From: Gekko japonicus
Taxonomy: Eukaryota
NCBI RefSeq assembly: GCF_001447785.1
Contig: NW_015164189.1
Location: 191,391-255,390 of the forward strand
Direction of reading: 5' to 3'
Length of the DNA: 64,000 nt
Below the pieces are notes generated by a model. The model worked only from the letters and a program-made list of their open reading frames with translations, ran no database searches and had not been told where the DNA came from. Below, piece after piece: positions 2,465-64,000 of the stretch. Positions within the stretch are counted from its first letter, which is position 1. Every line of letters begins with the position of its first letter. The position numbers were made by a program, and so were the translations under genes.

Positions 2465-2922
2465 TAGCAGCCTTTTTGAGCCTATAGGCAGTTTTAGAAT
2501 TCTGAGACAGGGTGGTGGTGAGCATAGGCACAACAAAATGGCTGCTGTGGCAGGCAGAGCCACATGCACACCGAGGAAGCCCAAGTGGAGGGCAGAAGAA
2601 GGATAATTTTTTTTAAAAAAAATACTTTGGGTTGCGAGAGAGAGAATGAAACCAAGGTTGTAATCTTGGGACATTTCAATTTGTGATTCATTTTATGTTT
2701 AGTTCTTTTATGGATTTGTTTAATGTTCTCCCTTTTATAATGCCAATAAAGGTTAACTAACACCAACAGTGTGGTGGCAGCTGCCACTGAAATGTTTTTG
2801 GAGAGATGCACAGCCGATGAGATCGCCAGCGGCCAGTCAGATGCCCTGCTGGGCAAAAGCCCCACCTACTTTCTAGAAACACTTAGCGGGCCCAGGGGCA
2901 CCATCTTGGGGACCCTGCTCTA
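2465..2922 (+). mobile_element. hAT-like MITE (family shared with 23119-23498 and 44226-44540)
   Basis: Shared internal blocks (aaaatggctgctg; gtggtggcagctgccactgaaa; actttctagaaacacttag) and decayed CAGGGGTCCCCAA-type ends. Confidence 0.6.
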
Positions 2923-3778
2923 ACCATGTCGCTAGGCAGGCTCTCTCGATGAGCAGAGATGGGAGAAAAATGCAGTGTGGAATGTGGGAGGTGAGGCAGG
3001 AAAGGAGAGTGAGTTCAGGTCCCTCACCTGCACACCCTTTTAATGTTAAAATGAGACATTGTGCACATATCTTTGCTTTATATGTGAATCCGGCAGGTAC
3101 GTTGGTAAACAGATGTGTCTCCCTATGTCTAATTCTACCCTGGATGTTCTCCCCTTCTCCCCTTCCATAGTCGAAAAAGGAAGACCGACAGGAAACTGGA
3201 AATAAACGCTGAATGTCCATATACAACACTACTTTGGCCCCGGTCACACGGGCAGGAAACTGCAGAGGAGAAGCGTGGCTGTTTGCCCTGGGGCAAACTA
3301 CCTAACACCAACAGTGTGGTGGCAGCTGCCACTGAAATGTTTTTGGAGAGATGCACAGCCGATGAGATCGCCAGCGGCCAGTCAGATGCCCTGCTGGGCA
3401 AAAGCCCCACCTACTTTCTAGAAACACTTAGCGGGCCCAGGGGCACCATCTTGGGGACCCTGCTCTAACCATGTTGCTAGGCAGGCTCTCTCGATGAGCA
3501 GAGATGGGAGAAAAATGCAGTGTGGAATGTGGGAGGTGAGGCAGCGAAGGAGAGTGGTTTTAGGTCCCTCACCTGCACACCCTTTTAATGTTAAAATGAG
3601 ACATTGTGCACATATCTTTGCTTTATATGTGAATCCGGCAGATCCGTGGATAAACAGATGTGTCTCCCTATGTCTAATTCTACCCTGGATGTTCTCCCCT
3701 TCTCCCCTTCCATAGTCAAAAAAGGAAGACCGACAGGAAGCTGGAAATAAACGCTAAATGTCCATATACAACACTACT
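2757..3778. repeat. Direct duplication, ~477 bp unit with 545 bp period
   Basis: 2757-3233 is nearly identical to 3302-3778; the ORF track shows twin peptides (MSRDGRK..., MGLLPSR...). Confidence 0.95.
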
Positions 3779-4500
3779 ACAATATATATTTTTACCAAGT
3801 ATTGCATGTATACAGTGCATAAAAGGTCCAAAAACAGTAATACAGTGCGTGGGAGAGCCAAAGCCACTTATCAAAATCCTCCGTATTACGTATCGTTTAG
3901 TGAAAATATTGAATGTACCTATAATTACAAAATTCTAATTACACTAAAAACTAAAGAATAAGACTCGTTTTTGGATGTATTGAATTTTATGCACTGTAAA
4001 GACTCTGCACTGGCTGCCAATAGCATTCCGGATTCGCTTCAAGGTGCTGGTTTTGACCTTTAAAGCCCTTTATGGTCAGGGACCGGCCTACCTGAGGGAC
4101 CGCCTTTCCCCGTATGTTCCCCAGAGAGCACTGAGATCAGGATCCCAAAACCGCCTGGACCTCCCTGGCCCTAAGGAAGTCAGGTTGATGGTAACCAGGA
4201 CGAGGGCTTTTTCTGGGGGCACCGTTGAATGTGTCTTTAAACTGCACTTTAGTTTTATCGCCATCTAATGAATGTTTTATATGGGTTGTTTGTGTTTTAA
4301 CTGATGCTTGTATTTATATCTTATTGTGTTGAATACTGCTTGTCAGTTTTGGAAGCCGCCCTGAACCCGCTTGCGGGGAGGGCGGGGTAAAAGTGGAATG
4401 AATAAATTAAAAAAAAATACTTGTTAAAAATATATTGTAGTAGTGTTGTATATGGACATTTAGCATTTATTTCCAGCTTCCTGTTGGTCTTCCTTTTTTG
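3717..4500. mobile_element. Foldback (long inverted repeat) element interrupted by an L2 insertion
   Basis: 3717-3803 pairs with 4416-4500; 3811-3824 pairs with 3985-3998. Confidence 0.75.
3999..4415 (+). mobile_element. L2 LINE 3' fragment
   Basis: Encodes LHWLPI..RIRFKVLVLTFKALYGQGPAYLRDRL (L2 ORF2 C-terminus); ends agccgccctga...gggagggcggg...aataaa plus A-tail. Confidence 0.85.
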
Positions 4501-5338: not shown

Positions 5339-5480
5339 GGTGGTGTGTGCTTTAACCTGACCCGAATGGACCAAATCTCTGCGCTGAACACGGAAGACTT
5401 CACCGTTGCCGTGGAGCCAGGGGTGACCCGGAAGGCCCTAAACAGCTTCCTGCGGGACAGTGGCCTCTGGTTTCCTGTCG
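5339..5480 (+). CDS. LDHD: LDHD exon 4 ([11 protein letters not shown]...[23 protein letters not shown])
   Basis: acag| acceptor, |gtacgg donor, 142 nt; phase consistent with neighbours. Confidence 0.96.
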
Positions 5481-6497: not shown

Positions 6498-6840
6498 TTT
6501 TATTTTATCAGATTTATATACCACCCTTCCCAAGTGGGCTCAGGGTGGTGAACAACAATGAGATAATACGCTTAAAACCATGTGATAACAATTTACATAT
6601 AATTATCATAAAATACCATGTAACCATAAAACAATCAGATGACCAATCAAAATCAGGCCAGTGATGAAAATGGGCCAGAAAATGTGCGCCGGAAGAACCA
6701 AGGCCAGAGAAGCTGGGGGGGAGGGGACGTCCACTGCCTCAGCCAAATGCCTGGCAGAAGAGCTCCATCTTGCAGGCCTTGCAGAACTGTGATAAGTCCC
6801 GCAGGGCCCTGATCTCACACGGGAGCTCATTCCACCAGGT
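6498..6840 (-). mobile_element. L2 LINE 3' fragment
   Basis: ttttattttat...cccacccttcccaagtgggctcagggtgg tail and gggagctcattccaccagg block. Confidence 0.7.
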
Positions 6841-7224
6841 ACATTGTACTTATGAGGTCCTTTCTCCTGCATCTGCCCCGGTTCCTATTGACCAGATGTC
6901 TGCTAGAATTCTGTGCTAGAAAAATTCCCAGCCATGAAGGGACCCAATTCAGACTGGGGGTGGGAGGGGTTGAAGCTTTCTTTGCCCCCACACTGTTTTC
7001 CTGACTTGAAATTGTCCTAGGGAGATGCTGCCTACTCTACTAGGTATGTGTATGTGTACTGAATGGCTACAAGCAGGTTTTCCAGCAGAGCAAGTAGTGA
7101 GTCCCCAAGGCTGTTTCAGGTCAGCAAAATGGCATGATGTGGGTGTGGAGGGGAAGGCTTACTCCCCGTGTCCTGATTCAAGGTGGACCACTGTGAGCCT
7201 GAGAATTCACTTTTGTGTCTGGTG

Positions 7225-7508
7225 AACATAAGAACATAAGAGACGCCAATGTTGGATCAGGCCAAAGGCCCATCCAGTCCAACACTCTGTGTCACACAGT
7301 GGCCAGAAATACCAGTGCCATCAGGAGGTCCAGCAGTGGGGCCAGGACATTAGAAGCCCTCCCACTGTTGACCCCCTCCCAAGCACCAAGAAGACAGAGC
7401 ATCACTTGCCCCAGAGCCCCTATCTATACCTTGTGGCTAATAGCCACTGATGGACCTCTGCTCCATATGCTTATCTAATTCCCTTTTGAAGCCGTCCATG
7501 CTTGTAGC
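7225..7508 (-). mobile_element. Young CR1 LINE 3' end (with TTCTTATG-type tail)
   Basis: acataagaacataaga terminus; ~99% identical to 10597-10778 in reverse orientation. Confidence 0.92.
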
Positions 7509-8258
7509 CTCCTGGTGGACACGGCATGGGAAGGGGAAGACACGGGTCGTGTGTGTATTGTGAACTTAGGTCCTCAGATTCCCAAAGGAAGTCTGGAGCA
7601 TTAGCATTCCAAGCAAACAAATTGCAAAAGAAAAGGGTGATTTCAGGCAGCATGGGAGTTTTCAGACACAACCAGTGCATTTGAGGGTCAAAGTTCTGAT
7701 TAGGAAATCTCAGGCTTCACTGGATCAGTTTTTAAGGTGGCACCATGTTGTGTCCCTTGGATAGGTGAAGTGACCATTGTGTTAGTCAATCTGCAGTAGC
7801 AGGAGATTGTCAGGTGCATTTTGAGGATTTGCTCTCAGTTCATGCAAAGTGTAGGTGGGACTCCCACAGGCCTGGCTGTGCCCCTGTGTGAACTGTGTGC
7901 GCACATAAGGATATGCCCTGTGTTTTTTGTTTCTTTACCAGAATCCTCTGCAACATACATGATTGACACAGAAAAAGCGCTCTCAAAGGAGTCGCATTTT
8001 GAAAACAATAACATAGACTAATTGAGGTAGCTTATTTAAGTCTCCCTTCCGAAGCACTTGGGCGGGATAGAAATCAACAACAAAATAATAATAATCCCCC
8101 CCCCCCGGAAACTAACATTGCTGTTTGTTCTGCTTTACTTAAGAAGAGTGCTGCAGGGACCCATATTTTGTAGGCAAGATTTCCAGGGCTACCACCCCCA
8201 TTCTTAGCAGGCTGTGCTATCTTTTCAGTCTGTACTGTACCCCAGGGGGGAAGGCAGC

Positions 8259-8425
8259 ATGGTGTAGCCTGATCTCGGAAGCTAAGCAGGGTCGGTACTT
8301 GGATGGGAGACCTCCAGGGAAGACTCTGCAGAGGAAGGCAATGGCAAGCCACCTTTACCTGTACCCTGTGCCTTGAAAGCCCCTTGTGCTGGGGGTCACC
8401 ATAAGATAGTTCCAACTTGAACACA
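8259..8425 (+). mobile_element. 5S rRNA-derived SINE
   Basis: ctgatctcggaagctaagcagggtcgg-tacttggatgggagacc is the 5S internal control region, followed by an RTE-type tail (aggcaatggcaagccac). Relatives at 14768-14970(+) and 19380-19530(-). Confidence 0.75.
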
Positions 8426-8594
8426 CTTAAATATGTTTGGGGTACACTTACTCACCTGGTCAGCAAGCCATAGCTTGATGCACCAAGAGCCACCATTTGG
8501 TCTTGTGATATATTTGGATGGATTATCCTCTCTTGCCCAGGTGCTTTCTGGCATCTTTTGGAAACTTGCCATCCTCTGGTTGCTGTCTGTAGTT

Positions 8595-8762
8595 TGTGAC
8601 TAAAGGGAACCTCCATATTCAGAGGTCTCCAAATTCCAGTGCAAGGAGGCAACATCAGGGGCAAGTCTCAGTTCTGTGTTGGCCTCTGTAGTAACTGGTT
8701 GGCCAGTGAGTGAGACAGGCTGCTGAACTAGATGGACCTACTGGTCTTGTCTTATGTTCTTC
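8595..8762 (+). mobile_element. Old CR1 3'UTR fragment
   Basis: gtgactaaagggaacctccatattcagagg...ctagatggacc...cttatgttctt; same family as 52850-53128. Confidence 0.7.
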
Positions 8763-8919
8763 TGCTCTTCCCTGCAAGAGCTGAGTTTTGGAGGTTCCTG
8801 ACTCAGTTCCAGATGCTGCCAGCCAGACCTGAGAGCGATTTCTGCCCTTCAGCTGTGTGGAAGGGATGTGGGGTGGGGGCTTTTGTTGCTGTCTCAGTGA
8901 GTTGCCTCTCCTTCCCCAG

Positions 8920-9079
8920 ACCCCGGGGCTGACGCCTCTCTCTGTGGCATGGCAGCCACCAGTGCATCCGGAACCAACGCTGTACGCTACGGCACCATGC
9001 GCCACAATGTGCTGAACTTGCAGGTGGTACTTCCTGATGGGAGGGTGCTTCATACTGCTGGGCGGAACCGGAGGCCCAG
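8920..9079 (+). CDS. LDHD: LDHD exon 5 ([48 protein letters not shown])
   Basis: ccccag| acceptor, |gtacgt donor, 160 nt; conserved FAD-oxidase motif. Confidence 0.96.
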
Positions 9080-9329
9080 GTACGTCACAAAGCTGCTTTC
9101 TGGAAGCCGCATCACACCTTTCCTTAAGTCTCTGCGTTGGATTTTCTAGCACGTGTCACACCAGGCTGGGAGTTTTTATTTAACAGAAGCCCCTACAGCA
9201 CATGGATGGGCATGACCTGTCCGATTTCCTTTGCATGTCTTTTTGACGCATGCTTGCTGCTTATCATTCGCTCTGGTTCATGTTGCAGACGTTGATTCAA
9301 AAGGGTGCTAGTGGCTACAGCCTGAGGCT

Positions 9330-10960
9330 GCATTTGGAAAGAAGAGAGCCCGCTGAGCTGGAGAAAGTGCAGAAGAGGGCAACCACAATGACTGAGGGGC
9401 TGGGGTACCTTTCCTATGAGGAGAGGCTAAAGAGACTGTGGCTTTTCAGTTCAGGCAGAAAAGGTGGCCGAGAAGGGGACGTGACAGAGGCCTACAAAAT
9501 TATGCACAGGGGAGAGAGTGGATGGAGAGAGGGGTTCTTTGAAGGGGTGAACAAACATGTGGACAAGGGGGATCCAATAGATATTGTTTACCTTGACTTC
9601 CAGAAGGCTTTTGATAAAGTTCCTCATCAAAGGCTCCTAAGTAAGCTCAAAAATCATGGGATAAAAGGACAAGTCCTTTTATGGATCAAAAACTGGCTAA
9701 TTAATAGAAAACAGAGAGTGAGTATAAATGGGCAGTTCTCCCAGTGGAGGGGGGTAAGCAGTGGGGTACCACAGGGATCAGTACTTGGTCCACTGCTTTT
9801 TAACTTGTTCATTAATGATTTGGAGTTGGGAGTAAGCAGTGAAGTGGCTAAATCTGCGGATGATACGAAGTTGTTCAGGGTGGTGAAAACCAGTGAGGAT
9901 TGTGAGGCACTCCAAAGGGATCTGTCAAAGATGGGCGAGTGGGCGTCAACATGGCAAATGGGGTTCAATGTGGCCAAGTGCAAGGTGATGCACATTGGAG
10001 CCAAAAATCCTAAATATAAATACACGTTGATGGGGTCTGAACTGGCAGAGACTGATCAAGAGAGAGATCTTGGAGTTGTAGTAGATAACTCACTGAAAAT
10101 GTCGAGACAGTGTGTGACTGCAATAAAGAAGGCCAATGCTATGCTGGGGATTATTAGGAAGGGTATTGAAAACAGATCAGCCAATATAATAATGCCCCTA
10201 TATAAATCAATGGTGAGACCTCATTTGGAATACTGTGTGCAGTTCTGGGCACCACACCTTAAAAAGGATATTATAGCTTTGGAAAAAGTGCAGAAAAGGG
10301 CAACTCGAATGATAAAAGGGTTGGAACACTTTCCCTATGAGGAAAGGTTAAGGCGCTTAGGGCTCTTTAGCTTGGAGAAACGACGACTGAGGGGTGACAT
10401 GATTGAGGTTTATAAGATTATGCATGGGAAAGAGCAGGTAGAGAAAGAGGTACTTTTCTCCCTTTCTCACAATACAAGAACCCGTGGGCACTCCATGAAA
10501 TTGCTGAGCGGTCGGGTTAGAACGGATAAAAGGAAGTACTTCTTCACCCAAAGAGTGATTAACACATGGAATTCACTGCCACAGGAAGTGGTGGGTGCTA
10601 CAAGCATGGACGGCTTCAAAAGGGAATTAGATAAGCATATGGAGCAGAGGTCCATCAGTGGCTATTAGCCACAAGGTATAGCTAGGGGCTCTGGGGCAAG
10701 TGATGCTCTGTCTTCTTGGTGCTTGGGGGGGGTCAACAGTGGGAGGGCTTCTAATGTCCTGGCCCCACTGCTGGACCTTTTCCCCCTCTCCCTAGATACT
10801 AGAGCTTGGGAGAATCCAAGAACATTGATTCAAGCTGGACAACAGGAGTGATTTTTCAAAAATTGGAGCACACTGCCAGAGGATGTCATGATGGCTACAG
10901 ACATAGATGGCTTTAAGAGGGGATCGGACGAATTCAAGAGGTCCATCAGTGGCACTGGCT
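9330..10960 (+). mobile_element. Older CR1 fragment, split by a younger CR1 (old parts ~9330-9533 and ~10779-10960)
   Basis: LEKVQKRAT...YEERLK...YKIMH before the break; tttccccctctcc...ctgccagaggatgt...gatggctttaagagggg after it. Confidence 0.8.
9534..10778 (+). mobile_element. Young CR1 LINE: open ORF2 RT/C-terminal region to TAG at 10668, plus partial 3'UTR
   Basis: VYLDFQKAFDKVPH, SGVPQGSVLGP, (F>S)ADD, ERDLGV, RPHLEYCVQFW, RRLRGDMIEVYK motifs; no stops over ~375 codons. Confidence 0.95.
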
Positions 10961-11328
10961 ACAACGCAAAAAAAGGAACCAGGGAGCTCAGGGTAGCATG
11001 CACAGTTCTCCCTTTGTCTGTTCAGTCCTTACGACTACGCTTTGAGGCCGGTCGGGCCAAGATTGAATGATGGATCCCAGGCTCTCCCGCAGGCTTCCTG
11101 GCAATGTTGGATTTGGCTGCCACTGGGAACATTACCGCAGGCTCCTTTGTCCAGGCGAGGGATTCCTACAAGGCCGAAGGGTTGAAAACCACTGGCTGAA
11201 TGTTACTGCTGGCTCTCTGAGACTTGCATGTTTTGCACAGCGCCTAGCCCGGCATGGATATTATTTTGCTCATCACTTAGGAAAGGGATGGTAGCTCTCT
11301 GAAATCCGTGCCTCTCTTTCACTTCCAG

Positions 11329-11528
11329 GAAGAGTGCAGCTGGTTACCAACTCACCGGCCTCTTTGTCGGCTCGGAGGGGACCCTGGGTCTGATCACCCA
11401 GGCCACCCTACGCCTCCACGGCATCCCCGAAGCCACAGCGGCAGCCACCTGTGCCTTTCCAAGTGTGCAAGCTGCCGTGGACAGCACCGTGCAGGTTCTG
11501 CAAGCTGGGATTCCCATTGCTCGCATTG
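11329..11528 (+). CDS. LDHD: LDHD exon 6 ([29 protein letters not shown]...IPIARI)
   Basis: ttccag| acceptor, |gtaaga donor, 200 nt; GSEGTLG motif. Confidence 0.96.
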
Positions 11529-11976
11529 GTAAGACCGGGGAGCTGTCAAGGGGAGCTGAGAGGGTGGGGGTGCGGCAAGGAAAAAGTGAAGCAGATTGCG
11601 TGCTCAGCAGGCTAAAAAACCTGGGATGCCTCTTCCCTTTTGCCTCGCTGTCTCACAGCAGAGCTACCAAGAGGCCTCGTTATCAGGCCGTCATTTAGCG
11701 TTCTGAACTCTGGAATCACCTTTGGAGTTTCACAGAACTTTGGGGCTCTGAGCCAACCAATCCAAATCGGTACCAAACAGCCGTGATCTTCAGCCTTTCT
11801 AGACCCCAGACCTTACTCTTTTAACCTACATGTGGCAGCAGGGGGTGCTACAGTCATGTGACAGGAAGAGGAGGAGCCAGAGTAGTTATGAAGAAAATGT
11901 CCAGGCCATCACTCTGGGGAACCTAAGGTCATAACCTTCCTGCTGGTGAGGGATAACGGACTCAATACTGCAGGGA

Positions 11977-12173
11977 TAGTGTTGCCAGCTCCAGGTTGGG
12001 AAATACCTGGATATTTGGGGGGGCGGAGCCTGAGGAGGGTGGGGTTCGGGGTACAGTCCCAGAGTCCAACCTCCAAAGTGGCCATTTTCTCCAGGTGAAC
12101 TGGTCTCTGTCACCTGGAAATCAGTTGTAATAGTGGGAGATCTCCAACTACCACTTGGAGGTTGGCAACCCTA
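11977..12173. mobile_element. hAT-like MITE with TAGGGTTGCCA-type TIRs
   Basis: tagtgttgccagctccagg ... ggttggcaacccta; relatives at ~56163-56285, 56709-56940 and 61780-61950. Confidence 0.7.
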
Positions 12174-12396: not shown

Positions 12397-13745
12397 TGAA
12401 AAAAAAAGCCAGGCCATTTCCAAAAAACAACCCCCCCCCCCCATAGTATCCCTTTAGGGGCTTATGACCCAGTAGGTGGAGCTCCACAATTTAATTAAGG
12501 GTCCTGACTCTGAACCCATTGGTTGCAAAAAGCCCCCTTTGTAGAATGAATCTTCCTGCCAAGGCTTAGCCATCTCATCTGTACAGGCTAAAAACTAATT
12601 GCCATTGGTCAAGCTGCTGTTGCATCAGAGAATGCTCACCAACATTCTAATTTCTGACGGGAAGAAGGAAGCAAAACAAGAGGTGGCTTGGGTGGAATAA
12701 GCATCAGAGGGGGAGGACTATGTGCAGGCAGGACTGTGTGCTCTGGGGGTGCTTCTGTAGTAGTACTCATACCAGTGTGGTGTAGTGGTTAACAGCGTTG
12801 GACTAGTGTCTGGGAGACCAGCGTTCGAATCCCCACTTGTGCCGTGGAAGCTCCCGGGGTGACCTTGGGCCTGTCACACACTCTCATCCTAATCTACCTC
12901 AAAAGGTTGTTGTGAGGATAAAATGGAGGAGAGGAGAACGATGGAAGCCACTTTGGGTCCCCTTAGTTCATTTGTAGAAATGAACAAATAAAATGTATGT
13001 TTGTGAGCACTGTGAGAGCAGAACCAGAAGAGACGCTGAGAGTTCTGTTTATGGTGGTATCTGCTGCCACCAGGAAATTTTATGCTTTTACTTTTGCTTA
13101 CTGGTTTGGTAGACCGAGTTCAAGGCTCACGAGGAACTATGTGGTCCTGGGAAGTAGGTCATTCAGAGCTGGTATAAACTTTGATAAAAGAGGATTTATT
13201 GAAATAAATACTAAATAAGAGGGTGGTACAATGTAACTAGTAATGTGTAAATGATGAACAATTGCTTTGGTATCACACACAATCTTCTCCCTCACTGACA
13301 GGGATCTTTTCATGTAACTTTGTAACACTTGTTTATCTCAATGCCATATGTGTTCACTGTTTCTCTCCCATTTGTTATGACACTCAGACTTTCCTTTAAC
13401 TGTTGGTCACTTAAACTTTACTGTTTCCTATACATTCAACTTTCAGCTTTCTCTCTCTGTCTCACTGAACAACCGCAGCTGTCAGCTTATAACTGCTTCA
13501 ATATGCAGGCCTGCTCAAATCAGGGCAACAGNNNNNNNNNNNNNNGAAATAGGAGAATTAAGCCCCGCCCCCGTGCCATTTTCCTGGCCTGAATGCCCCC
13601 ATGAAACTGCAGGGTGCCCTGTTGGACAGATATACAGGTCTTGATATGCCCAGTGGTACAGATAGCTGTGTGAGGGGATATTTGTCAGGGAATTGGCATT
13701 GAGGGTGAGAGGGAAGTGCTAAAGACAGAAGCAGAGTCTTTAGGC

Positions 13746-14970: not shown

Positions 14971-15375
14971 ACAAAAATGCAAAAATACCCCCCCAAAAAA
15001 GAGCAGTATTATCTACTCAGACTGACAGCAGCTCTCCAGAGTCACAAGTGGAGGTCTTTCAGGTCACTTACTACCCAATCCCTTTAATTGGAGATGTCAG
15101 GGATTGAACCGGGGATCTTCTGCATGCCAAGCAGAGGCTCTTCCACTGAACTGCAGCCTCTCCCATGTATCTGAGGAAGTGTGCTGCGATTCATGTAAGC
15201 CCATATTGAAACATATGATGTTAAGACTTTACGGTGCCATTGGACTTTCCTTTTGTTGTAGGGCTTGTCAGATGCTTAGTAAAATTACTGTTATTAAGGG
15301 CAAGCAGTGGTACATGGCTTGTAGACCGCTTCTCCCCACTCCCTTCAGTCTTCTATGCTTAGCCAGTTTGATACA

Positions 15376-15695: not shown

Positions 15696-15878
15696 GACCC
15701 ATAGCTTAGCGGTAAAAGCATCTGCTTTGCATGCATTAGGTCCCAGGTTCAGTTCCTGGCATCTTCAGATAAATGGGCCTGATAGCAGGTGATGTGAAAG
15801 ACCTCCACCTGAGACCTGGGAAACCAGACTGCCCTTGGTAGATCAGGGGTCTGACTCTGTATAAGGCAACTTTATGTG
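15696..15878 (+). mobile_element. tRNA-derived SINE (Squam2-like)
   Basis: A/B-box head (tagcttagcggta...ggttcagttcctggc), caggtgatgtgaaagacctc body; decayed copies at 15005-15157(-), 20030-20190(-) and a cluster at 50050-50835. Confidence 0.7.
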
Positions 15879-18301: not shown

Positions 18302-20919
18302 GCTGCCTGTGTTATCTATTATGAACGCACAGGGGTGGAATCTTGGTGAAGCCTTCATGGCTATAAGTGCCTAACTGCATATTACATTGTTCCCGGGGGA
18401 TGTCCCCGGACTGGGTGGAGAGAAGAGGTTTGGCTCTTTCCCACACATACCATTTTCCTAACCTGAAATTTATCTCGTTCATTTATAACCTGCCTTTCTC
18501 CACAAAGGGGACCCAAAAGGGCTTTCGTCATTCTCCTCTCCTCCGTTTTATACTGGCAACAAACCTGTGAGGTAGGTTAGGCAGAGTGTGTGTGACTGGC
18601 CCAAGGTCACCCAGCGAGCTTCCATGGCACAAGCAGGGATTCAGACCTTGGTCTCCCGGATACCAGTCCAACACTCTTAAGGACTACACCCCCACTGACT
18701 CTCCGGGGTACATCAGTTGTCATGTTGGGGGCTGAGTGTGTACTGATGAGCTGCAAAGCAAACTGCTGCCTTCCCCACCATATCAGGGAACTGGCACAGG
18801 AAGGGGTGAGGTCTAAGCCCCCTCTCTCCATGCACTACAATCCTACATCTTCCCTTTGTGCCTGGGAAACTAGAACGCACCCCAACCCCTGAGGGTGTCC
18901 CTGGAGAAAACACAATGCATAGGTAAGATCCTTAGAAGCTGCCTCACTGTGGACAGACAGGCCAAAGAAAACACATTTGCTTCACGTACAGTAGTAGGAA
19001 GAAGAGTGGAAAACATAATCAGAAGTGCTTTCAGCTCAAGTGGTCCTTGATTTTACTCTCCCCTGAAAGCTTTCATCAAGCCTTTCTAAAGTGTGGAAGT
19101 AGCTGTCACTCCTTGCGAAGAGCGAGTGCACAAGGACACGGGCGCACCTGGGAGCAGGCTTATGGGTCTGCCTAGCTCACAAAGCAGTTCTCTTCCCTCA
19201 CCACCTACGCCAGCTTGCAGATCAGTGCTCTTCATCCACCCCACCCACTGGTTTGTCCATCTTCACGCATCTAGCCTTTTCAGAATGCCATGGGAAAAGC
19301 TAGCCAAAAACTATTGTATACATCCTGGCAGTAGAAAGTGCTGTCAAATCACAGAGTAATGGTGACACAGAGTATTTTTTGAGGCAACACAGGTGGTTTA
19401 CCATTGCCTGCCTCGCATAGCTACCCTGGTCTTCCTTGATGCTCTCCCATCCAGGTACTAACCAAGGCCAACCCTGCTTAGCTTCCAAGATCTGGTGAGA
19501 TCAGGCTAGCGTGGGCCGCCATCATCCTGGGCTGTACTAATCTATCCCAGTCTAAGTCAATTAGGACCACCTCCCTCACCTTCGGGGGGGGGGAGATGCC
19601 AAGTACAGGCTCATCGCTGCCAACACAAGATGCCATCATGGTGGGAGGCAGAGTCACACGGCCTTATGCACTGGAACACAAGTCCTAGGGATGCGCAGTG
19701 TACCTATGCACCCCAATCTATCTTTCTGGTCCTCCAGTGACCAGGGGAGATGGTTTTACTTTCAGCTGTGTCAGAAATTGCAGTTCTTTTGCTTTGTCTC
19801 ACAGAACATACTCTTGCTAAAATCCAAAGCCTTACTGTTTCTGCATCACCCCCTTTTCATGGGTTCAGTGCCTTGGTCAAGCATCAGAGGGACAAGTGGG
19901 AACTGTGACTGGATGGAGAGGGCTAGACTATGCTCTTAGTCAAGAAGGGGGTGACCCCATCAGAGTGGGGACTGTATGTAAACCCCCTTCTGCCTGTCCT
20001 AATGAGGGGGGCAGTAGGCAGACAATACCAAAGTCCACACTGTCTGCTCAGACTGGCAGTGGCTGTCCAGGATCTCAGGCTGAGGTCTTTCACATCACCT
20101 AGTACCTGATTGTTTTAACTGGAAATGTAAGGGTAGAACCTGGGACCTTCTGCATACCAAGCAGGTGCTCTACCGCTGACCCATGGCTCCTCCACAAATT
20201 GCGCCTTTGTGCAAAGGAGGACGACACTGACTCTCAAAGTCCCTGCTTAGCTGAGCTACACAGCATCTTAGCAAAGCACATCTTACAGTATTTCTTAAAG
20301 ATAGTCTGACTTTTTCTTTTTTTTAAAAAAACCCTCTTCTGAGTTAGGAAATCCCAAAGGGGGAGGAGCAACCATTCTAAGCCCACCCCTGCAATGTGTC
20401 TTGTGAAGGTGTTCAGACCTTGCAGGTAGCATTCAGACGGATGCTAAGCACTTTCTTCACAGCTCTTCATTCTTATGAAGGACATACCTTCTATGGGAAA
20501 ACACACCATCTGACCGGTTTCACACCTCAAGATCACCAGAGAGAAGCTCTGGTGTAGCTCATGATTCAGGGGATTGGGGGAGAGGAGGGAAGCACAGAAT
20601 GTGATACTGGTTTTGAAATTCCGTCACCTGACCACCTAGCCTGTGTTTTTTGCAGTGCATCAGTGCTATCCCCCCCCCCCAAGCACTACAGGACCCCCTT
20701 TTTTTGTAAGGGTAACTGACACACGGGAAACTCCTCCTGATTACATGCTGCTTTGCTGGAGCTCTCTAGAACCCTCAAATTCCAAGGCAACTTCCTGGCA
20801 GCCTTGCTGGCCCTGAAGTTCAGGCGTGAACCCTAGAGAAGAAAAAGTCTCGCAGAACACCTTGCCTGAACCCCCTGCCCGCCCCTTTCCCCAATCCCTC
20901 AGATGACCAAGACAGCCGA

Positions 20920-34901: not shown

Positions 34902-35246
34902 AAAGGTAAAGGTAAAGGTTCCCTTGCTCGAAAGCCAGTCAAACCCGACTCTAGGGTTGCGGTGCTCATCTCCGTTTTAAAGCCGAAGAGCCAGCGCTGT
35001 CCGAAGACGTTTCCGTGGTCATGTGGCCGGCATGACTAAACACCAAGGCGCACGGAACACTGTTACCTTCCCACCGAAGGGGTACCTATTTATCTACTTG
35101 CAATTTCTTGCTTTCGAACTGCTAGGTTGGCAGGAGCTGGAACTAGAGACGGGAGCTCACTCCGTCTTGCAGCACCCGGGTCTCGAACTGCTGAACTACT
35201 GACCTTCCACAGCCTGCAGTTCAGCGTCTTAACCACTTGAGCCATA
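34902..35246 (-). mobile_element. Sauria SINE
   Basis: (AAAGGT)n tail, gtggtcatgtggccggcatgac core, tRNA-like head. Confidence 0.92.
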
Positions 35247-37667: not shown

Positions 37668-38016
37668 GAGCTGCAGTGGCTCAAGTGGTTAAGACGCTGA
37701 ACTGCAGGCTGTAGAAAGTCAGTAGTTCAGCAGTTCGAGACCCAGGTGCCGCAAGACGGAGTGAGCTCCCGTCTCTAGTTCCAGCTCCTGCCAACCTAGC
37801 AGTTCAAAAGCAAGAAATTGCAAGTAGATAAATAGGTACCACTTCAGTGGGAAGGTAACAGCGTTCCGTGCGCCTTGATGTTTAGTCATGCCGGCCACAT
37901 GACCATGGAAAAGTCTTCGGACAGCGCTGGCTCTTCGGCTTTGAAACGCAGATGAGCACCGCAACCCTAGAGTCGGATTCGACTGGCTTTCGAGCAAGGG
38001 AACCTTTACCTTTACC
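37668..38016 (+). mobile_element. Sauria SINE, full length with TSD
   Basis: tRNA-like head, (ACCTTT)n tail, TSD TAAGGACAG at 37659-37667 and 38017-38025. Confidence 0.95.
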
Positions 38017-39080
38017 TAAGGACAGTGCAGCATCACTTTCCAGAAAACGTCATGCTAGTGGAACTTAAAAGGGTTAACCTTTTAACAGTGGATTAAAAAA
38101 TAGGTGGTTATGTGCACTCTGTTATTCCTCCCCTCCCCTCCAACATTAACCTTTTTCTCAACTGAGTTAGTGTGAAAGCCAGCTGTAAAGAAGTGCCATT
38201 GCATCCCCAAACAAGGTGCTTGCTGATGCCACTCTTAAAGCAGTGGTATCAAGAACAGCAGCCACTCCTGACCCCCACTAACTCTGTGCAAAGGTAGCAC
38301 CAGGGAGGGGAGGCAGGTAGGAAGCACGAATGGGACCTTTACCATCCTTGGGACTGGCTAATCTACTGATCAGCTTCAGTACTGGAAGTACACATTGAAT
38401 ACTGTATATTTAAATATGGCAGAAACAGTCTTAGTTCTTCTAAAGTTCCCAGTGCAGTATACAGATGTGTTAAATTAAAAACAAATTAAACCCACACCAA
38501 CAGTGACCACAATTAAGACATGGCTGAACCCACAAGACGATCTCTCACACACATACTCACTCATACACAAACACAGTCCTCAAAGTTTGCCTTTAGTCTG
38601 TACCGGTGCTGGCGGCAGCAGCAAAGCCAACTGGCACAAGGTAAACAGCCATCACAGTTTCAGTTCCCCTTCCCACTCTTTGCCAGCTGAGCACTTCCTA
38701 TCTCCTGTGTGGGGGATGCACACCATTCGGCTCTTTGAAATGGGAACAGGGCTACACAGCATGCAAGGCTAGCTTCCCTTCCTTTACATGTCGCCAACCA
38801 GTCCAACTTTGCACTCAGGATTGGAAATCCCCTTGACAAGTCAGAGGACGATTTCCCCACCTCCCACTCTCCTGGAATGTGCAGAGAGGCTCTTTTTGAG
38901 GTGCAGACAGGCGGGAGCTGGCCCACGAGGCTGGGCCACTGTGAAAGCTGATTCCAGCTGAAGGAGATGGGGAGAGGCTTAAGAAGAGGAGAAGAATTCA
39001 GCAGTGATCTCATCTGAGGCAGAAGTTCAAACGGCAGCTGTACATTTGGCACAAGTGAAGATGAAGGATACAGGTATAAA

Positions 39081-51439: not shown

Positions 51440-52720
51440 GACTCCCACCCCACGGCTGAGAGCCCCAAACTCACCGCTGTGCGAGCTAAACCACCGGGGC
51501 CCGAGGTGCAAAGGCAGCGCGTCGGCCAGCGAGGCCCTGGAACCCAGGTAGAGCATCCCGTCTCTGTGGTGACCGCCTCCCGTCTCCTGGTAACCGTTGC
51601 CATGGGCGTAAGGGGTGGAGTCCGCGCCCGACCCGCCGCCGCTGCCAGGGCCGCGCTCCGAGTCTCCGGCCGCGGCGGCCGCCGAAGCAGCCGTGTAGAG
51701 CCCGAAGGGGACGCTGCCGGGCGCCGCGGGCTCCATGCCCAGCCCCACGCCCCCGCCGGCCACCGAGCTGACAGAGCGGCTGCGCAAGCCCATGGTGGCC
51801 CCGCCGCCGCCGCCCGCGCCCCGGTACTGCCCGAAGTGGGGGGCTCCTCCGGGCGGCGGCACCGCGCTGTCGTCGCTCGACACGCCGCCCCGCGAGCGCC
51901 CCGCTGCCGTCGCGGCCGCCGTGCTCTGCTTGCCGCCCATGCCGAGCGGGGAGGTGGCGGGGAGTCGACGACGACTAGGAGCTAAGGGCGCCCCCGGAGC
52001 CGGGCATCCTCGCCTCGCCGTCGGCGCTGCCGCCGCTGTTGCTGCAGCCCCTCCTCCGCTTCCTTCGCCCCCAACCGCCGCCGCCGCCGCCGCGCCCCAA
52101 CGGGCGGCCCGCCGCGCCTCCCGGGCTCATCCACGGCGGCAAGGCAGCAGGGCCAGCGCCGCCCCGCTTCGGGGCCCGCCCTACGGAAGGGAGAAGCGGT
52201 GGCGGCGACCGCCGCGGCTTCGCTCGAGTCCTCTAGCGCTGCTCCGCATCCAGGCGGCGGCCAGGCCCTGCCTCTTGCAGCAGCGGCGGCGGCGGCGGCG
52301 GCACCTCCGTCAAGGCGCGGCCTTTAGCCGGCCATGGAGAAAAAGGCGAGCCCTGCCCCTGCCCCAAGGCTCCGGCTTCCCACTTTCAGCCGCCCCGCTG
52401 GGAGGCTGCCTTTTGTCCGAGATGCAGCCAGCTGGGGCTCCCGCCTCGCCGTCGGTCCGCTCAGCCCTCCTGACGGCTGCCGGGGAAGACAATAGAGCCG
52501 CGCACGGCGCCTGCGCCACTCAGGCTCCCCGCCCCCTCTTCTGCCGCCGCCGCCGCCGCCGCCACCACCACGGCCATGCGTCAAGGGCTGGCCCAGCTAA
52601 GGAAGGGGTCGTTTGAACTGGGCTCCAGGTGGCCAGGCAGCGCCTAGCAGGGCTCTGGTCGTTAGAGACCTCGTGGCTACCTTGGGAAGTGGAGACGCGC
52701 CGAGGGGCCGTGCCAAAGGG
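51440..52720. promoter_or_regulatory. CpG island / ZNRF1 promoter and 5' leader, with CCG/CGG repeats
   Basis: Very high GC and CpG density over exon 1 and upstream. Confidence 0.85.
51475..51940 (-). CDS. ZNRF1: ZNRF1 exon 1, coding part (E3 ubiquitin ligase; MGGKQS myristoylation motif)
   Basis: MGGKQST, GLRSRSVSS, GNGYQETGGGHHRDGMLYLGSRASLADALPLH match ZNRF1; |gtgagt donor; spliced CDS 726 nt (241 aa). Confidence 0.97.
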
Positions 52721-60576: not shown

Positions 60577-61727
60577 AGACAAGAACATAAGAGAAGCCAA
60601 TGTTGGATCAGGCCAGTGGCCCATCCAGTCCAACACTCTGTCACACAGTGGCCAAAAATACCAGGTGCCATCAGGAGGTCCAGCAGTGGGGCCAGGACAC
60701 TAGAAGCCTTCCCACTGTTGATCCTCCTAAGCACCAAGAATACAGTGCATCACTTGCCCCAGACTGAGAGTTCCTATCTATGCCTTGTGGCTAACAGCCA
60801 CTGATGAACTTCTGCTCCATATGTTTATCCAATTCCCTCTTGAAGCCATCCATGCTTGTAGCCGCCGCCACCTCCTGTGACAGTGAATTCCATGTGTTAA
60901 TCACTCTTTGGGTGAAGAAGCACTTCTTTTTATCTGTTCTAGCCCGACTGCTCAGCAATTTCATCAAGTGCCCACGAGTTCTTGTATTGTGAGAAAGGGA
61001 GAAAAGTACTTCTTTCTCTACCTGCTCTATCCCATGCATAATCTTATAAACCTCGATCATGTCACACTTCAGTCGTCATTTCTCCATGCTAAAGAGCCCC
61101 AAGTGCTTTAACCTTTCTTCATAGGGAAAGTGTTCCAACCCTTTTATCATTCTAGTTGCCCTTTTCTGCACTTTTTCCAATGCTATAATATCCTTTTTGA
61201 GGTGTGGTGACCAAAACTGGACACAGTATTCCAAATGAGGTTGCACCATCGATTTGTACAGGGGCATTATGATACTGGCTGATTTGTTTTTAATTCCATT
61301 CCTAATAATCCCTATCATAGCGTTGGCTTTTTTTATTGCAGTTGCACACTGTCTCAACATTTTCAGTGAGTTATCTACTACAACCAAGAACTCTCTCTTG
61401 GTCAGGCTCCGCCAATTCAAACCCCATCAACGTGTATTTATAGTTAGGATTTTTTGCTCTAATGTGCATCACTTTGGACTTGGCCACATTGAACCCCATT
61501 TGCCATGTTGACGCCCACTCACCCATCCTCAATAGATCCCTTTGGAGTGCCTCACAATCCTCCCTGGTGCTCCCCACCCTGAACAGTTTCGTATAATCCG
61601 CAAATTTAGCCACTTCACTGCTTACTCCCATCTCCAAATCATTAATGAACAAGTTAAAAAGCATTGGACCCGGTACTGATCCCTGCGGTACCCCACTGCT
61701 TACCACCCTCCACTGAGAAAATTGCCC
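60577..61727 (-). mobile_element. CR1 LINE, 5'-truncated, same family as 9534-10778, with frameshift and stop
   Basis: SGVPQGSVPGP, FADY, QPHLEYCVQFW and IEVYKIMHG split over three ORFs; aagaacataaga 3' terminus. Confidence 0.93.
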
Positions 61728-64000
61728 AAGAATCCCCCCCAAAAAATAGAAATAGCAGTTGTATTAATGTACCTATGAGCTCAGGAGGTGGCTGGGAATT
61801 TCCTCCCAGCACCCTTGAGCTTACCATCAGGTGTTAGTACATGTGCACTCTTGTCAGCCACATGGCCCATCATGGACTTAAATACTCCACATCTCTGGGA
61901 TGTGGGAGTGGGTGAAAAAGGGTATCGGATCCTTGAAATAGAAACTGCCTGGACTTCCCCTTTCATATTGCTGTGCTAAGTTGAGTCTGTATGAATGTCC
62001 CTTTATTCAAAAATAAGACCACTGTGGGTGTAAGTGCATGGCAAAAGCTGCTGAGACCATTCCATAGACTATATTAGGTATCTCTGTTCTGGAACATCTG
62101 AGCAATTGGGTAGCACAGGGCAAGCAAAATCTCATCCAAAGTGTTTTGTTTCCATGTACGGCAGCCCTTCCCCATGCTTGGTCATTAAGGAGACAGATGC
62201 TTAGTGTAAAGCAAATTGTCGAGGAGAGAGGAACATGAGTAGTTAATCTTCATGGAAAAGCATGTGCAGATACTATCCACAAATGAATTCTTAACTAGGG
62301 TGCCGGTTGCCTTTTATTGGGCTGTAGCCATGTGTTCCATGAAGTGAAGAATGATCTTCTGTATGAGGCAGCCTGCTTTTTCTAACTGCGTCATACTGTC
62401 ATCTGATAGTAAAGGCGACAGGGCGTCTGGCTTCCCAGTACTGCAGCAGTTGGGGGATTCAAAGGTGCCACAATAACACCACATTTGCATTTGACCATCT
62501 CTTCTATTCAGCAAACCTTTAATATGCTGTAGGTCTTGTTCTCCTTTGTTCCACTTTCGTTAATAGTTGTCCAGAAGCAAATGAGCCGGTGTGGTTTAGT
62601 AGTTAAGAATGCTTGACTAAGATCTGGGAGACCCAGGTTCAAAACCCCACTCTGCTATGGAATCTTGCTGGGTGACCTAGGTCCAGTCACATGGGGTCTC
62701 TGCCTAACCTATCTTACAGGGTTCTTGTGAGGATAAAATGTAGAAGAGGAGCATGATGTAAGCCACTTCTGGTCCCTGTTGTACAGAAGGGGAATTAAGG
62801 GTATATGAAGTGAATAAACAGTTTCCCCTCTGGGGATCATAGGAATATGCTGAGGGCGGTTCATTTTAGTTGTCTGGATAGGATCTATTTTGGGGGGGAT
62901 AAACCTCTTTACAGATAAGCACAGTATAGAACCAAGAATAGAAAAAAAGAGTATATGCAAATCAAACTTTTTATAGTCATTCTGCTCTTTAGTTTAGAAA
63001 AACGATTGGCTGACATGGATCATCTTGACTTCAAATGTAAGTGTCTAAGCCCATCCTTGTTGCAGGTTCTCCAGTCTCTGTTTTAAAATATGCAAAGTAA
63101 TCCCAGTAACTTGGAAAGCTGTGCAAAAACCCTGGAATAAAGCTGAACCTGGGCAAGTGTCAGTTGTCATACAAATAAAATCCTGGACTAGGACCAAGGA
63201 AACCTAGGTTGATTGCTTTTACACGCAATGAAACTGACAGAACCAGTTGTGTATACTCAGCCTAACTTTGCAAGGACGTTGTGATCCTGAAGTGGGCTCC
63301 CCCCACCAGTGCAGTTCTGATCTCCATGAAGGAAGGACAGGATTTAAATGTTTACATATGCATCATCTGCTCCCTAGGTAGGATGCCAGGCAAATAGGAA
63401 CAAGCTTGATTTTTAATGGATGAGGCTACTTGGGGGGAGTGGAATAGCTTGAGCCCCCTCCCACCCCAGTGTGGTCCTCCTTTCCAAGGACACTGACCAT
63501 GCAGTAGCAAGAATGCTTTGCATGTAAGATGTTCCAGATTCCAAGCAGCAGCTATTGAGACTTTCCTTTATCTGAGAACCAAGGCAAGCAGAGTAGATGA
63601 TGCTAAGCTAGAAGAACCAAAGTTCTCACTTGGGAGAAGAAGACAGTTTACTATGTTCCTGACTGTGCCTCTTTTCTTCCTTCCCATGGGAAAAACTAAA
63701 GTGATACTCTTGGGAATGCTGTTGCAGGGGAGACAATATCCACCCTTCACCTAGCGCCAGTTCAATGTATTTTGCCACCCCAACCAAGGTGATTAACATA
63801 TGGGGTGGGTAAGCAAGTCCTGCCCATGCACTCAGTGATGGCAGCCTCCCCACAACTCTCTCTGTCAGGCTGAACTTCAGGAAGAGGAAGTAGGTGCCCT
63901 TCCCCCCCTTGGAGTACAACCTCCACAGTGAAACCTGTCAAAACGATAGGTAAGTCAGTAGTAACAAACTCTGACAAGCTAGGCAGCAGTGTTTCAGAGA

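What the first reader, a model, noticed from the sequence alone, without database searches (positions are those of the whole stretch)
7326..10778. Near-perfect inverted CR1 pair brackets LDHD exon 5: candidate dsRNA switch (A-to-I editing, exon skipping or circRNA)
Seen: 7326-7508 (intron 4, minus) and 10597-10778 (intron 5, plus) are reverse complements over ~182 bp with about 2 differences by eye. They sit ~1.4 and ~1.5 kb either side of the 160-nt exon 5. Established: inverted intronic repeats, such as Alu pairs in primates, drive back-splicing, exon skipping and ADAR editing. Inference: the LDHD pre-mRNA could loop out exon 5. Because 160 is not a multiple of 3, skipping would frameshift the FAD domain, so young CR1s may have created a lineage-specific brake on D-lactate metabolism.
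Basis: partly seen in the sequence, partly recalled or inferred. Interest (0 to 1): 0.7.

Follow-up and report, generated by a model that had tools for sequence, protein, structure and literature searches.

The report
Chance inverted CR1 pair around exon
Two copies of a very young jumping gene with over 12,000 copies in this lizard genome sit in opposite directions on either side of one exon of the D-lactate dehydrogenase gene; they likely pair in the unspliced RNA, but the few RNA reads seen include the exon normally, so this is most likely an ordinary by-product and not a switch.

Summary
In detail: 7326-7508 and 10597-10778 are 98.9% reverse complements around the 160-nt exon 5 of an intact 480-aa LDHD. 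Skipping would frameshift to a stop in exon 6. The near-identity needs no special cause. Both arms are 3' ends of a young CR1 family with at least 12,792 copies. Arm B's 182 nt occur exactly 273 times, and 5 of 24 sampled copies match it as well as arm A does. The arms differ at a site that splits the family, so they probably inserted separately. About 110 inverted pairs this close are expected by chance, and two others were seen. A -395 kcal/mol duplex is predicted, and editing of such CR1 pairs is known in chicken. One RNA run showed exon 4-5 (3 reads) and 5-6 (5 reads) joints and no skip or back-splice at a 3-read floor. That test is weak: depth is low, decay would hide skipped RNA, and that animal may lack the arms. 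The one oddity is arm B, a tail-less CR1 set cleanly inside an older CR1. The scan noted the same layout before in another genome (BRSK). Ordinary; low interest.

The parts
7225..7511 (-). CR1 copy A: 5'-truncated, 287 nt, ends in an 8-nt microsatellite tail, flanked by a 6-nt target-site duplication (CTGGTG at 7219-7224 and 7512-7517)
7326..7508 (-). Arm A of the inverted pair (part of copy A); its exact 183-nt sequence occurs only here
5339..5480 (+). LDHD exon 4 (FAD_binding_4 positions 44-90)
8920..9079 (+). LDHD exon 5, 160 nt, phase 1 to 2, codons 153-206; donor matches the U1 consensus at 8 of 9, 15 of 20 pyrimidines upstream
9359..9533 (+). Older CR1 fragment (about 69% like the young family), left half of the host into which copy B inserted
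9534..10778 (+). CR1 copy B: 1,245 nt, truncated at both ends (about 100 nt of 3' end and the tail missing), no clear target-site duplication, unbroken reverse-transcriptase frame to 10668; 99.4% to L033
10597..10778 (+). Arm B of the inverted pair; this exact 182-nt sequence occurs 273 times in the genome
10779..10960 (+). Older CR1 fragment, right half of the host; continues collinearly from 9533 (right end approximate)
11329..11528 (+). LDHD exon 6; would hold the premature stop (ending 65 nt in) if exon 5 were skipped

Best explanation
Two copies of one very young, high-copy CR1 family, likely from separate insertions, lie in opposite orientation in LDHD introns 4 and 5, and their shared 182-nt 3' segment is predicted to pair in the pre-mRNA, likely with some intronic A-to-I editing but without an important effect on exon 5. 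Shown: the pair, the family size and youth, that such identity and spacing are expected, an intact gene, and inclusion joints in one RNA run. Inferred: separate insertions (the arms differ at a family-polymorphic site; A has its own tail and target-site duplication), entry of B by internal priming or endonuclease-independent repair (both ends truncated, host CR1 not deleted), duplex formation in vivo, and editing. Any skipped transcript would likely be destroyed by nonsense-mediated decay, so the most that is likely is a small unselected loss of mRNA.
For: A 31-nt family motif occurs 12,792 times, 0 in the reversed control. DNA read depth implies about 19,000 copies at 95% likeness. Arm B is exact at 273 places. 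Of the first 30 motif loci, 24 aligned over 150 nt or more (6 shorter ones dropped): median 97.3% to arm B, 5 of 24 at 98.9% or more, 9 of 24 at 98% or more (loci chosen by an exact motif, which biases identity upward). At the A/B substitution (10682), 19 of 30 loci carry A's base and 11 carry B's, and 66% of DNA reads carry A's base. Poisson expectation is 114 inverted neighbours within 3.5 kb. 2 of 83 listed intervals are inverted pairs within 5 kb: 776 nt at 93% and 307 nt at 94%. The same window holds a longer pair, 341 nt at 95.6%. RNA run X23: exon 3-4 17 reads, 4-5 3 reads, 5-6 5 reads, no 4-6 or back-splice row. Duplex -395 kcal/mol, 181 of 183 nt paired in the MFE of 7200-10800. Chicken CR1 3' fragments are hyper-edited for this reason (PMC5625713 passages). 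In human Alu pairs the link between stability and skipping held only for weak-acceptor exons (PMC13019027 section 21).
Against: The RNA test is weak: 8 inclusion reads, 12% of one run, a 3-read floor, and a 95% upper bound on skipping of about 31-53%. The library looks poly(A)-like (unique intron depth about 0), so circles and unspliced RNA are under-sampled. Exon 5 depth is about a third of its neighbours in X23 (3.7 against 8-13 per bin) and 0 in X24; the tool warns that human-like reads of conserved exons are removed, and no skip joint accounts for the dip. X23 differs from the reference at three exonic sites in all reads, so that animal may lack one or both arms. Arm A's pair of variants (its base at 10682 with B's base at 10771) is seen in 0 of 18 informative same-type sampled copies, which local conversion would explain; it does occur at 48 other places. 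Inverted pairs are enriched around skippable human exons out to 5 kb and cause skipping in TBXT.
Confidence: 0.8

Rival explanations
1. Loop-out skipping: the duplex traps exon 5, a sizeable share of transcripts join exon 4 to 6, gain a stop at codon 174 and are degraded, lowering LDHD in carriers.
For: Geometry and duplex energy. The stop lies 135 nt before a downstream junction. Alu precedent. Decay would hide the product. Exon 5 depth dip.
Against: No 4-6 joint at 3 reads or more, though about ten would be needed to explain the dip. Good splice sites. The arms are 3.1 kb apart, while in TBXT the 1.4 kb pair dominated and the 4.2 kb pair gave a minor product. No sign of selection, and a product with no protein function.
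Confidence: 0.1
2. The duplex drives back-splicing of exon 5 into a 160-nt circular RNA.
For: Flanking reverse-complementary intronic repeats are the standard layout (PMC6376117 passages); duplex predicted.
Against: No 'goes back' joint 9079>8920 in X23 (library not suited). Single-exon circles come from long exons (medians 169-253 nt) with long flanking introns (medians 5.9-8.4 kb in HEK293); here the exon is 160 nt and the introns 3.4 and 2.2 kb.
Confidence: 0.06
3. The pair has one origin: one CR1 RNA was copied twice at nicks about 2 kb apart (A primed at the tail, B primed internally, a split form of twin priming), or A was later gene-converted from B.
For: A has the tail and B lacks it; B entered without deleting its host. 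A shares B's base at 10771, unlike 0 of 18 same-type sampled copies. A near-identical local pair exists elsewhere (L054: 709 nt at 99.9%, 2.4 kb apart, direct).
Against: A and B differ at the family-splitting site 10682. A's variant combination occurs at 48 other places. Tail-less copies are common (2 of 30, plus one in L055), and the two checked have no inverted partner within about 5 kb (L050, L051).
Confidence: 0.07
4. One arm, or its near-identity, is an artefact of collapsing repeat reads in a fragmented assembly.
For: 191,500 contigs; arm B equals a common family sequence. No junction-spanning reads were visible in the truncated tables.
Against: A carries a private variant and a target-site duplication. 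B's flanks rejoin into one older CR1. No N in 6500-12000.
Confidence: 0.03

Closest known systems
TBXT AluY/AluSx1 exon-6 loop-out (PMC10901737, passages read)
   Same: Two retroelements in opposite orientation in the introns on either side of one exon, both over 500 nt from it; stem-loop predicted.
   Different: TBXT skipping is in frame, was seen by RT-PCR and was lost on deleting either Alu; the pair is 1,448 bp apart. Here skipping would frameshift, the arms are 3,088 nt apart, and no skip joint was seen.
Genome-wide inverted Alu pairs around exons (PMC13019027 sections 20-21; PMC13019944 section 4 part 1)
   Same: Pair within 5 kb windows of an exon; arm length near that of a SINE.
   Different: CR1 LINE ends in a lizard. 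In those data such pairs also flank many constitutive exons, and the effect is tied to weak acceptors; exon 5's acceptor looks ordinary (no MaxEnt score could be computed).
Hyper-edited chicken CR1 3' fragments (PMC5625713, passages)
   Same: Neighbouring CR1 copies share the 3' end and so form dsRNA like SINEs; over 35,000 edited sites in chicken.
   Different: In the lizard of that study Penelope, not CR1, was the massively edited LINE. Editing at this locus was not measurable.
Internally primed or endonuclease-independent LINE insertions (PMC4859970, figure-legend passages)
   Same: Copy B is truncated at both ends, lacks the tail and has no clear target-site duplication.
   Different: Described for mammalian L1/Alu; here a CR1, with little or no loss of the target and no obvious primer homology.
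Reverse-complement-driven exonic circRNAs (PMC6376117, passages)
   Same: Inverted repeats in both flanking introns.
   Different: Short exon, short introns, no back-splice read seen.

Membership tests
CR1 LINE | ORF2 reverse transcriptase | tested here: met
   PF00078 at E 7e-23 in the unbroken frame of copy B
CR1 LINE | 3' octamer microsatellite tail (feature from PMC4316615 passage) | tested here: met
   8-nt repeat at the end of copy A and of 28 of 30 sampled copies; absent from copy B
CR1 LINE | 3' UTR hairpin before the tail | tested here: inconclusive
   A stem-loop is in the MFE and centroid of 7225-7300 minus, but z = -1.14
CR1 LINE | Mostly 5'-truncated copies | tested here: met
   A is 287 nt, B 1,245 nt; most sampled copies start within B's span; 97% truncated in squamates (PMC11303007 passage)
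CR1 LINE | RT groups with the CR1 clade rather than L2 in a tree | not tested
   Clade name rests on the tail type and recalled ORF2 motifs; no phylogeny was built
Exon loop-out by inverted repeats (TBXT type) | Inverted high-identity repeats in both flanking introns | tested here: met
Exon loop-out by inverted repeats (TBXT type) | Arms predicted to pair across the exon | tested here: met
   181 of 183 nt paired in the MFE
Exon loop-out by inverted repeats (TBXT type) | Skipped isoform present in RNA | tested here: inconclusive
   No 4-6 joint at 3 or more reads against 3 and 5 inclusion reads; low depth, genotype of the animal unknown
Exon loop-out by inverted repeats (TBXT type) | Skipping depends on both arms | not testable with these tools
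   needs deletion or minigene
Exonic circRNA locus | Back-splice junction reads | tested here: inconclusive
   none listed in X23, a library with almost no intronic depth
ADAR hyper-edited inverted repeat | A>G clusters in uniquely placed RNA reads, absent from matched DNA | not testable with these tools
   Arms draw reads from the whole family. Family-wide (A>G + T>C)/(G>A + C>T) place ratios were 0.93, 0.93 and 0.75 in RNA against 0.79 in DNA; heavily edited reads fall below the 95% filter

The most novel reading that the evidence does not exclude
A burst of young CR1s in this lizard has created a hundred or more near-perfect inverted pairs that act as the reptile counterpart of primate Alu loop-outs. 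At LDHD the pair, possibly laid down by one RNA primed at two nicks 2 kb apart and still polymorphic, diverts exon 5-less transcripts to decay and so makes an allele-specific dimmer of D-lactate clearance.
Probability: 0.07. Interest if true: 0.55.

Novelty: new member of a known kind. Interest (0 to 1): 0.14.

Why it matters
If skipping were real, it would be a CR1-made, non-primate case of exon loop-out acting through decay on a metabolic gene whose loss is reported to raise D-lactate in people (PMC6443703 and PMC10589216, search listing only). As it stands the locus is one of roughly a hundred expected pairs. Its value is as an example, and as a pointer that this genome's young CR1 burst allows a genome-wide test of whether inverted LINE ends affect splicing outside primates.

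Tried and rejected
A DNA search of the own genome with arm B returned nothing because common words are skipped; it carries no information. No RNA holder was listed among indexed runs, so the raw-read runs were laid instead. The four-run lay was swamped by repeat reads: 307 joints were hidden, so exon joints and empty-site joints for A or B could not be seen. Whether the arms are fixed or polymorphic stays open, and both lays are used. Single-RNA origin and gene conversion were considered and lowered. An inversion with staggered breaks was rejected, because it would need exon 5 to have been reversed in the ancestor. A later deletion of B's tail is unlikely because the host CR1 halves rejoin with at most a couple of bases lost. 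Family-wide editing ratios showed no clear RNA excess but are not a test of this locus. No related genome is held, so presence in other species was not tested. No MaxEnt scores were available; splice sites were compared by consensus match only. Literature: searches (CR1, A-to-I editing, inverted repeats, lizard; 15 of 23 listed; LDHD, D-lactate, exon skipping; 15 of 328 listed) showed no paper on this locus; supplements were not read. PMC3747384 passages added nothing. First exon coordinates were off for exons away from the finding and were corrected.

Full report
Observation. The two arms are real. Self-BLAST aligns 7326-7508 with the reverse complement of 10597-10778 over 183 columns at 98.9%, one substitution and one gap. 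They flank exon 5 (8920-9079, 160 nt) by 1,411 and 1,517 nt. The gene is LDHD: exon 5 matches solved D-lactate dehydrogenase 8jdb at E 1.5e-24, exons 4 and 5 match FAD_binding_4, and eleven exons give an intact 480-aa frame. Joining exon 4 to exon 6 shifts the frame to a stop at codon 174, 135 nt before the next junction; by established rules (recalled) that is a target for nonsense-mediated decay. The label 'lizard, likely gecko' comes from earlier scan notes and my recall of the SINE type, not from a test here.

Anatomy. The arms are the overlap of two different insertions. Copy A (7225-7511, minus) is a 287-nt 5'-truncated CR1 with an 8-nt microsatellite tail and a 6-nt target-site duplication. 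Copy B (9534-10778, plus) is 1,245 nt with an unbroken reverse-transcriptase frame. It stops about 100 nt short of the family's 3' end and sits inside an older CR1 whose halves rejoin with almost no loss. One arm boundary is A's 5' truncation and the other is B's 3' truncation. A both-ends-truncated copy without tail or duplication resembles internally primed or endonuclease-independent LINE insertions (PMC4859970 passages); that mechanism is inferred.

Is the near-identity special? No. A 31-nt motif inside the arms occurs 12,792 times in the genome and 0 times in the control. DNA read depth suggests about 19,000 copies. Arm B's 182 nt are exact at 273 places; arm A's are exact only here. Among the first 30 motif loci, 24 aligned over 150 nt or more: median identity to arm B was 97.3%, and 5 of 24 reached 98.9% (selection by exact motif inflates this somewhat). 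The single A/B substitution is a family polymorphism: 19 of 30 loci have A's base and 11 have B's. This favours different source elements. Against that, A carries B's base at 10771, unlike any of 18 informative same-type copies in the sample, but the combination exists at 48 other places.

Is the arrangement special? At this density about 114 inverted neighbours within 3.5 kb are expected. Among the 100 listed places, 2 of 83 intervals are inverted pairs and 2 are direct pairs within 5 kb, against 2.1 expected in all. The inverted ones pair over 776 nt at 93% and 307 nt at 94%; whether they flank exons was not checked. The window itself has a 341-nt, 95.6% inverted SINE pair. Two other tail-less copies have no inverted partner within about 5 kb, so B's missing tail does not require A.

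Does it act on the RNA? The duplex is predicted at -395 kcal/mol, and 181 of 183 arm-A bases pair with arm B in the MFE fold of 7200-10800. Three RNA runs and one DNA run of one coded organism were laid; repeat reads hid the exon joints. Run X23 alone (12% of the run) gave three joints, all GT-AG: exon 3-4 with 17 reads, 4-5 with 3 and 5-6 with 5. No 4-6 or back-splice joint reached the 3-read floor. This shows normal inclusion but bounds skipping only below about 31-53%. Exon 5 depth is about a third of its neighbours in X23 and zero in X24. The tool warns that human-like reads of conserved exons are dropped, and a skip large enough to explain the dip would have been listed. Further limits: decay would hide the skipped form, the library has almost no intronic depth, and the animal differs from the reference at 5404, 11377 and 11464, so it may not carry the arms. 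Editing cannot be placed because the arms draw reads from the whole family; change-type ratios in RNA (0.93, 0.93, 0.75) bracket that in DNA (0.79).

Comparison with known systems. The layout is that of TBXT, where deleting either Alu removed an in-frame skip, and where the 1.4 kb pair dominated over a 4.2 kb pair (PMC10901737 passages). Genome-wide, inverted Alu pairs are enriched around skippable exons out to 5 kb but also flank many constitutive ones. Stability tracked skipping only for weak-acceptor exons (PMC13019027 sections 20-21), and enrichment rises with closeness to the exon (PMC13019944 section 4 part 1). Exon 5 has the joint-best donor in the gene (8 of 9) and 15 of 20 pyrimidines upstream (range 11-18). 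Single-exon circles favour longer exons and introns than these (PMC6376117 passages). Pairing and hyper-editing of CR1 3' fragments is documented in chicken (PMC5625713 passages). So the locus works, at most, like an Alu pair; membership among proven loop-out switches is not shown. Searches listed no paper on this locus. The scan noted the same kind of layout at a BRSK gene in another genome (unchecked).

Verdict. A real but expected by-product of a recent CR1 burst (0.8). Sizeable skipping into decay 0.1, circular RNA 0.06, single-event origin or conversion 0.07, artefact 0.03; these are not all exclusive. New member of a known kind; interest 0.14.

Noticed in passing
window 34904-35244 and 37677-38017: A second, longer inverted pair (341 nt, 95.6%, 2.4 kb apart, duplex -667 kcal/mol) of a SINE that I recall as Sauria-type, apparently inside an intron of the minus-strand neighbour gene (start codon near 51941, recalled as ZNRF1).
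   Followed up: partly
window 9247-10668 (+): A 473-codon stop-free frame runs from intron 5 through the old CR1 ORF2 remnant into copy B's reverse transcriptase, in LDHD's sense; probably a chance in-frame junction.
   Followed up: partly
window 9533/9534 and 10778/10779: Copy B lacks its last 100 nt or so and its tail, and sits in an older CR1 with almost no target loss. Tail-less young copies also occur at L009, L025 and in L055.
   Followed up: yes
window 2754-3233 and 3299-3778: 480-nt direct duplication at 97% in LDHD intron 2; its end (3717-3803) has an inverted 87-nt copy at 4416-4500 (94%) in the same intron.
   Followed up: no
window 60581-61728 (-): A third, older CR1 copy, 89-90% like A and B.
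   Followed up: partly
L054 3806-4514 and 6194-6902: Two young CR1 copies 2.4 kb apart in the same orientation are 99.9% identical over 709 nt, closer to each other than to copy B; possible local re-insertion, conversion or duplication.
   Followed up: no
L056 7651-8876; L052 5846-6212: Long near-palindromes (1,232 nt at 96%; 375 nt at 88%, the latter two CR1 3' ends facing each other) that would form tighter hairpins than the finding's pair.
   Followed up: no
window 7228-7484 in read lay: Many DNA reads show 'goes back 239-257' joints at the CR1 tail, implying numerous genomic copies with tandem-repeated 3' ends (as in L024).
   Followed up: no
window 12779-12967 and 18502-18690; 15036-15142 and 15714-15819: Older inverted SINE pairs (82% and 76%): the first spans LDHD exons 7-11, the second lies within intron 8.
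   Followed up: no
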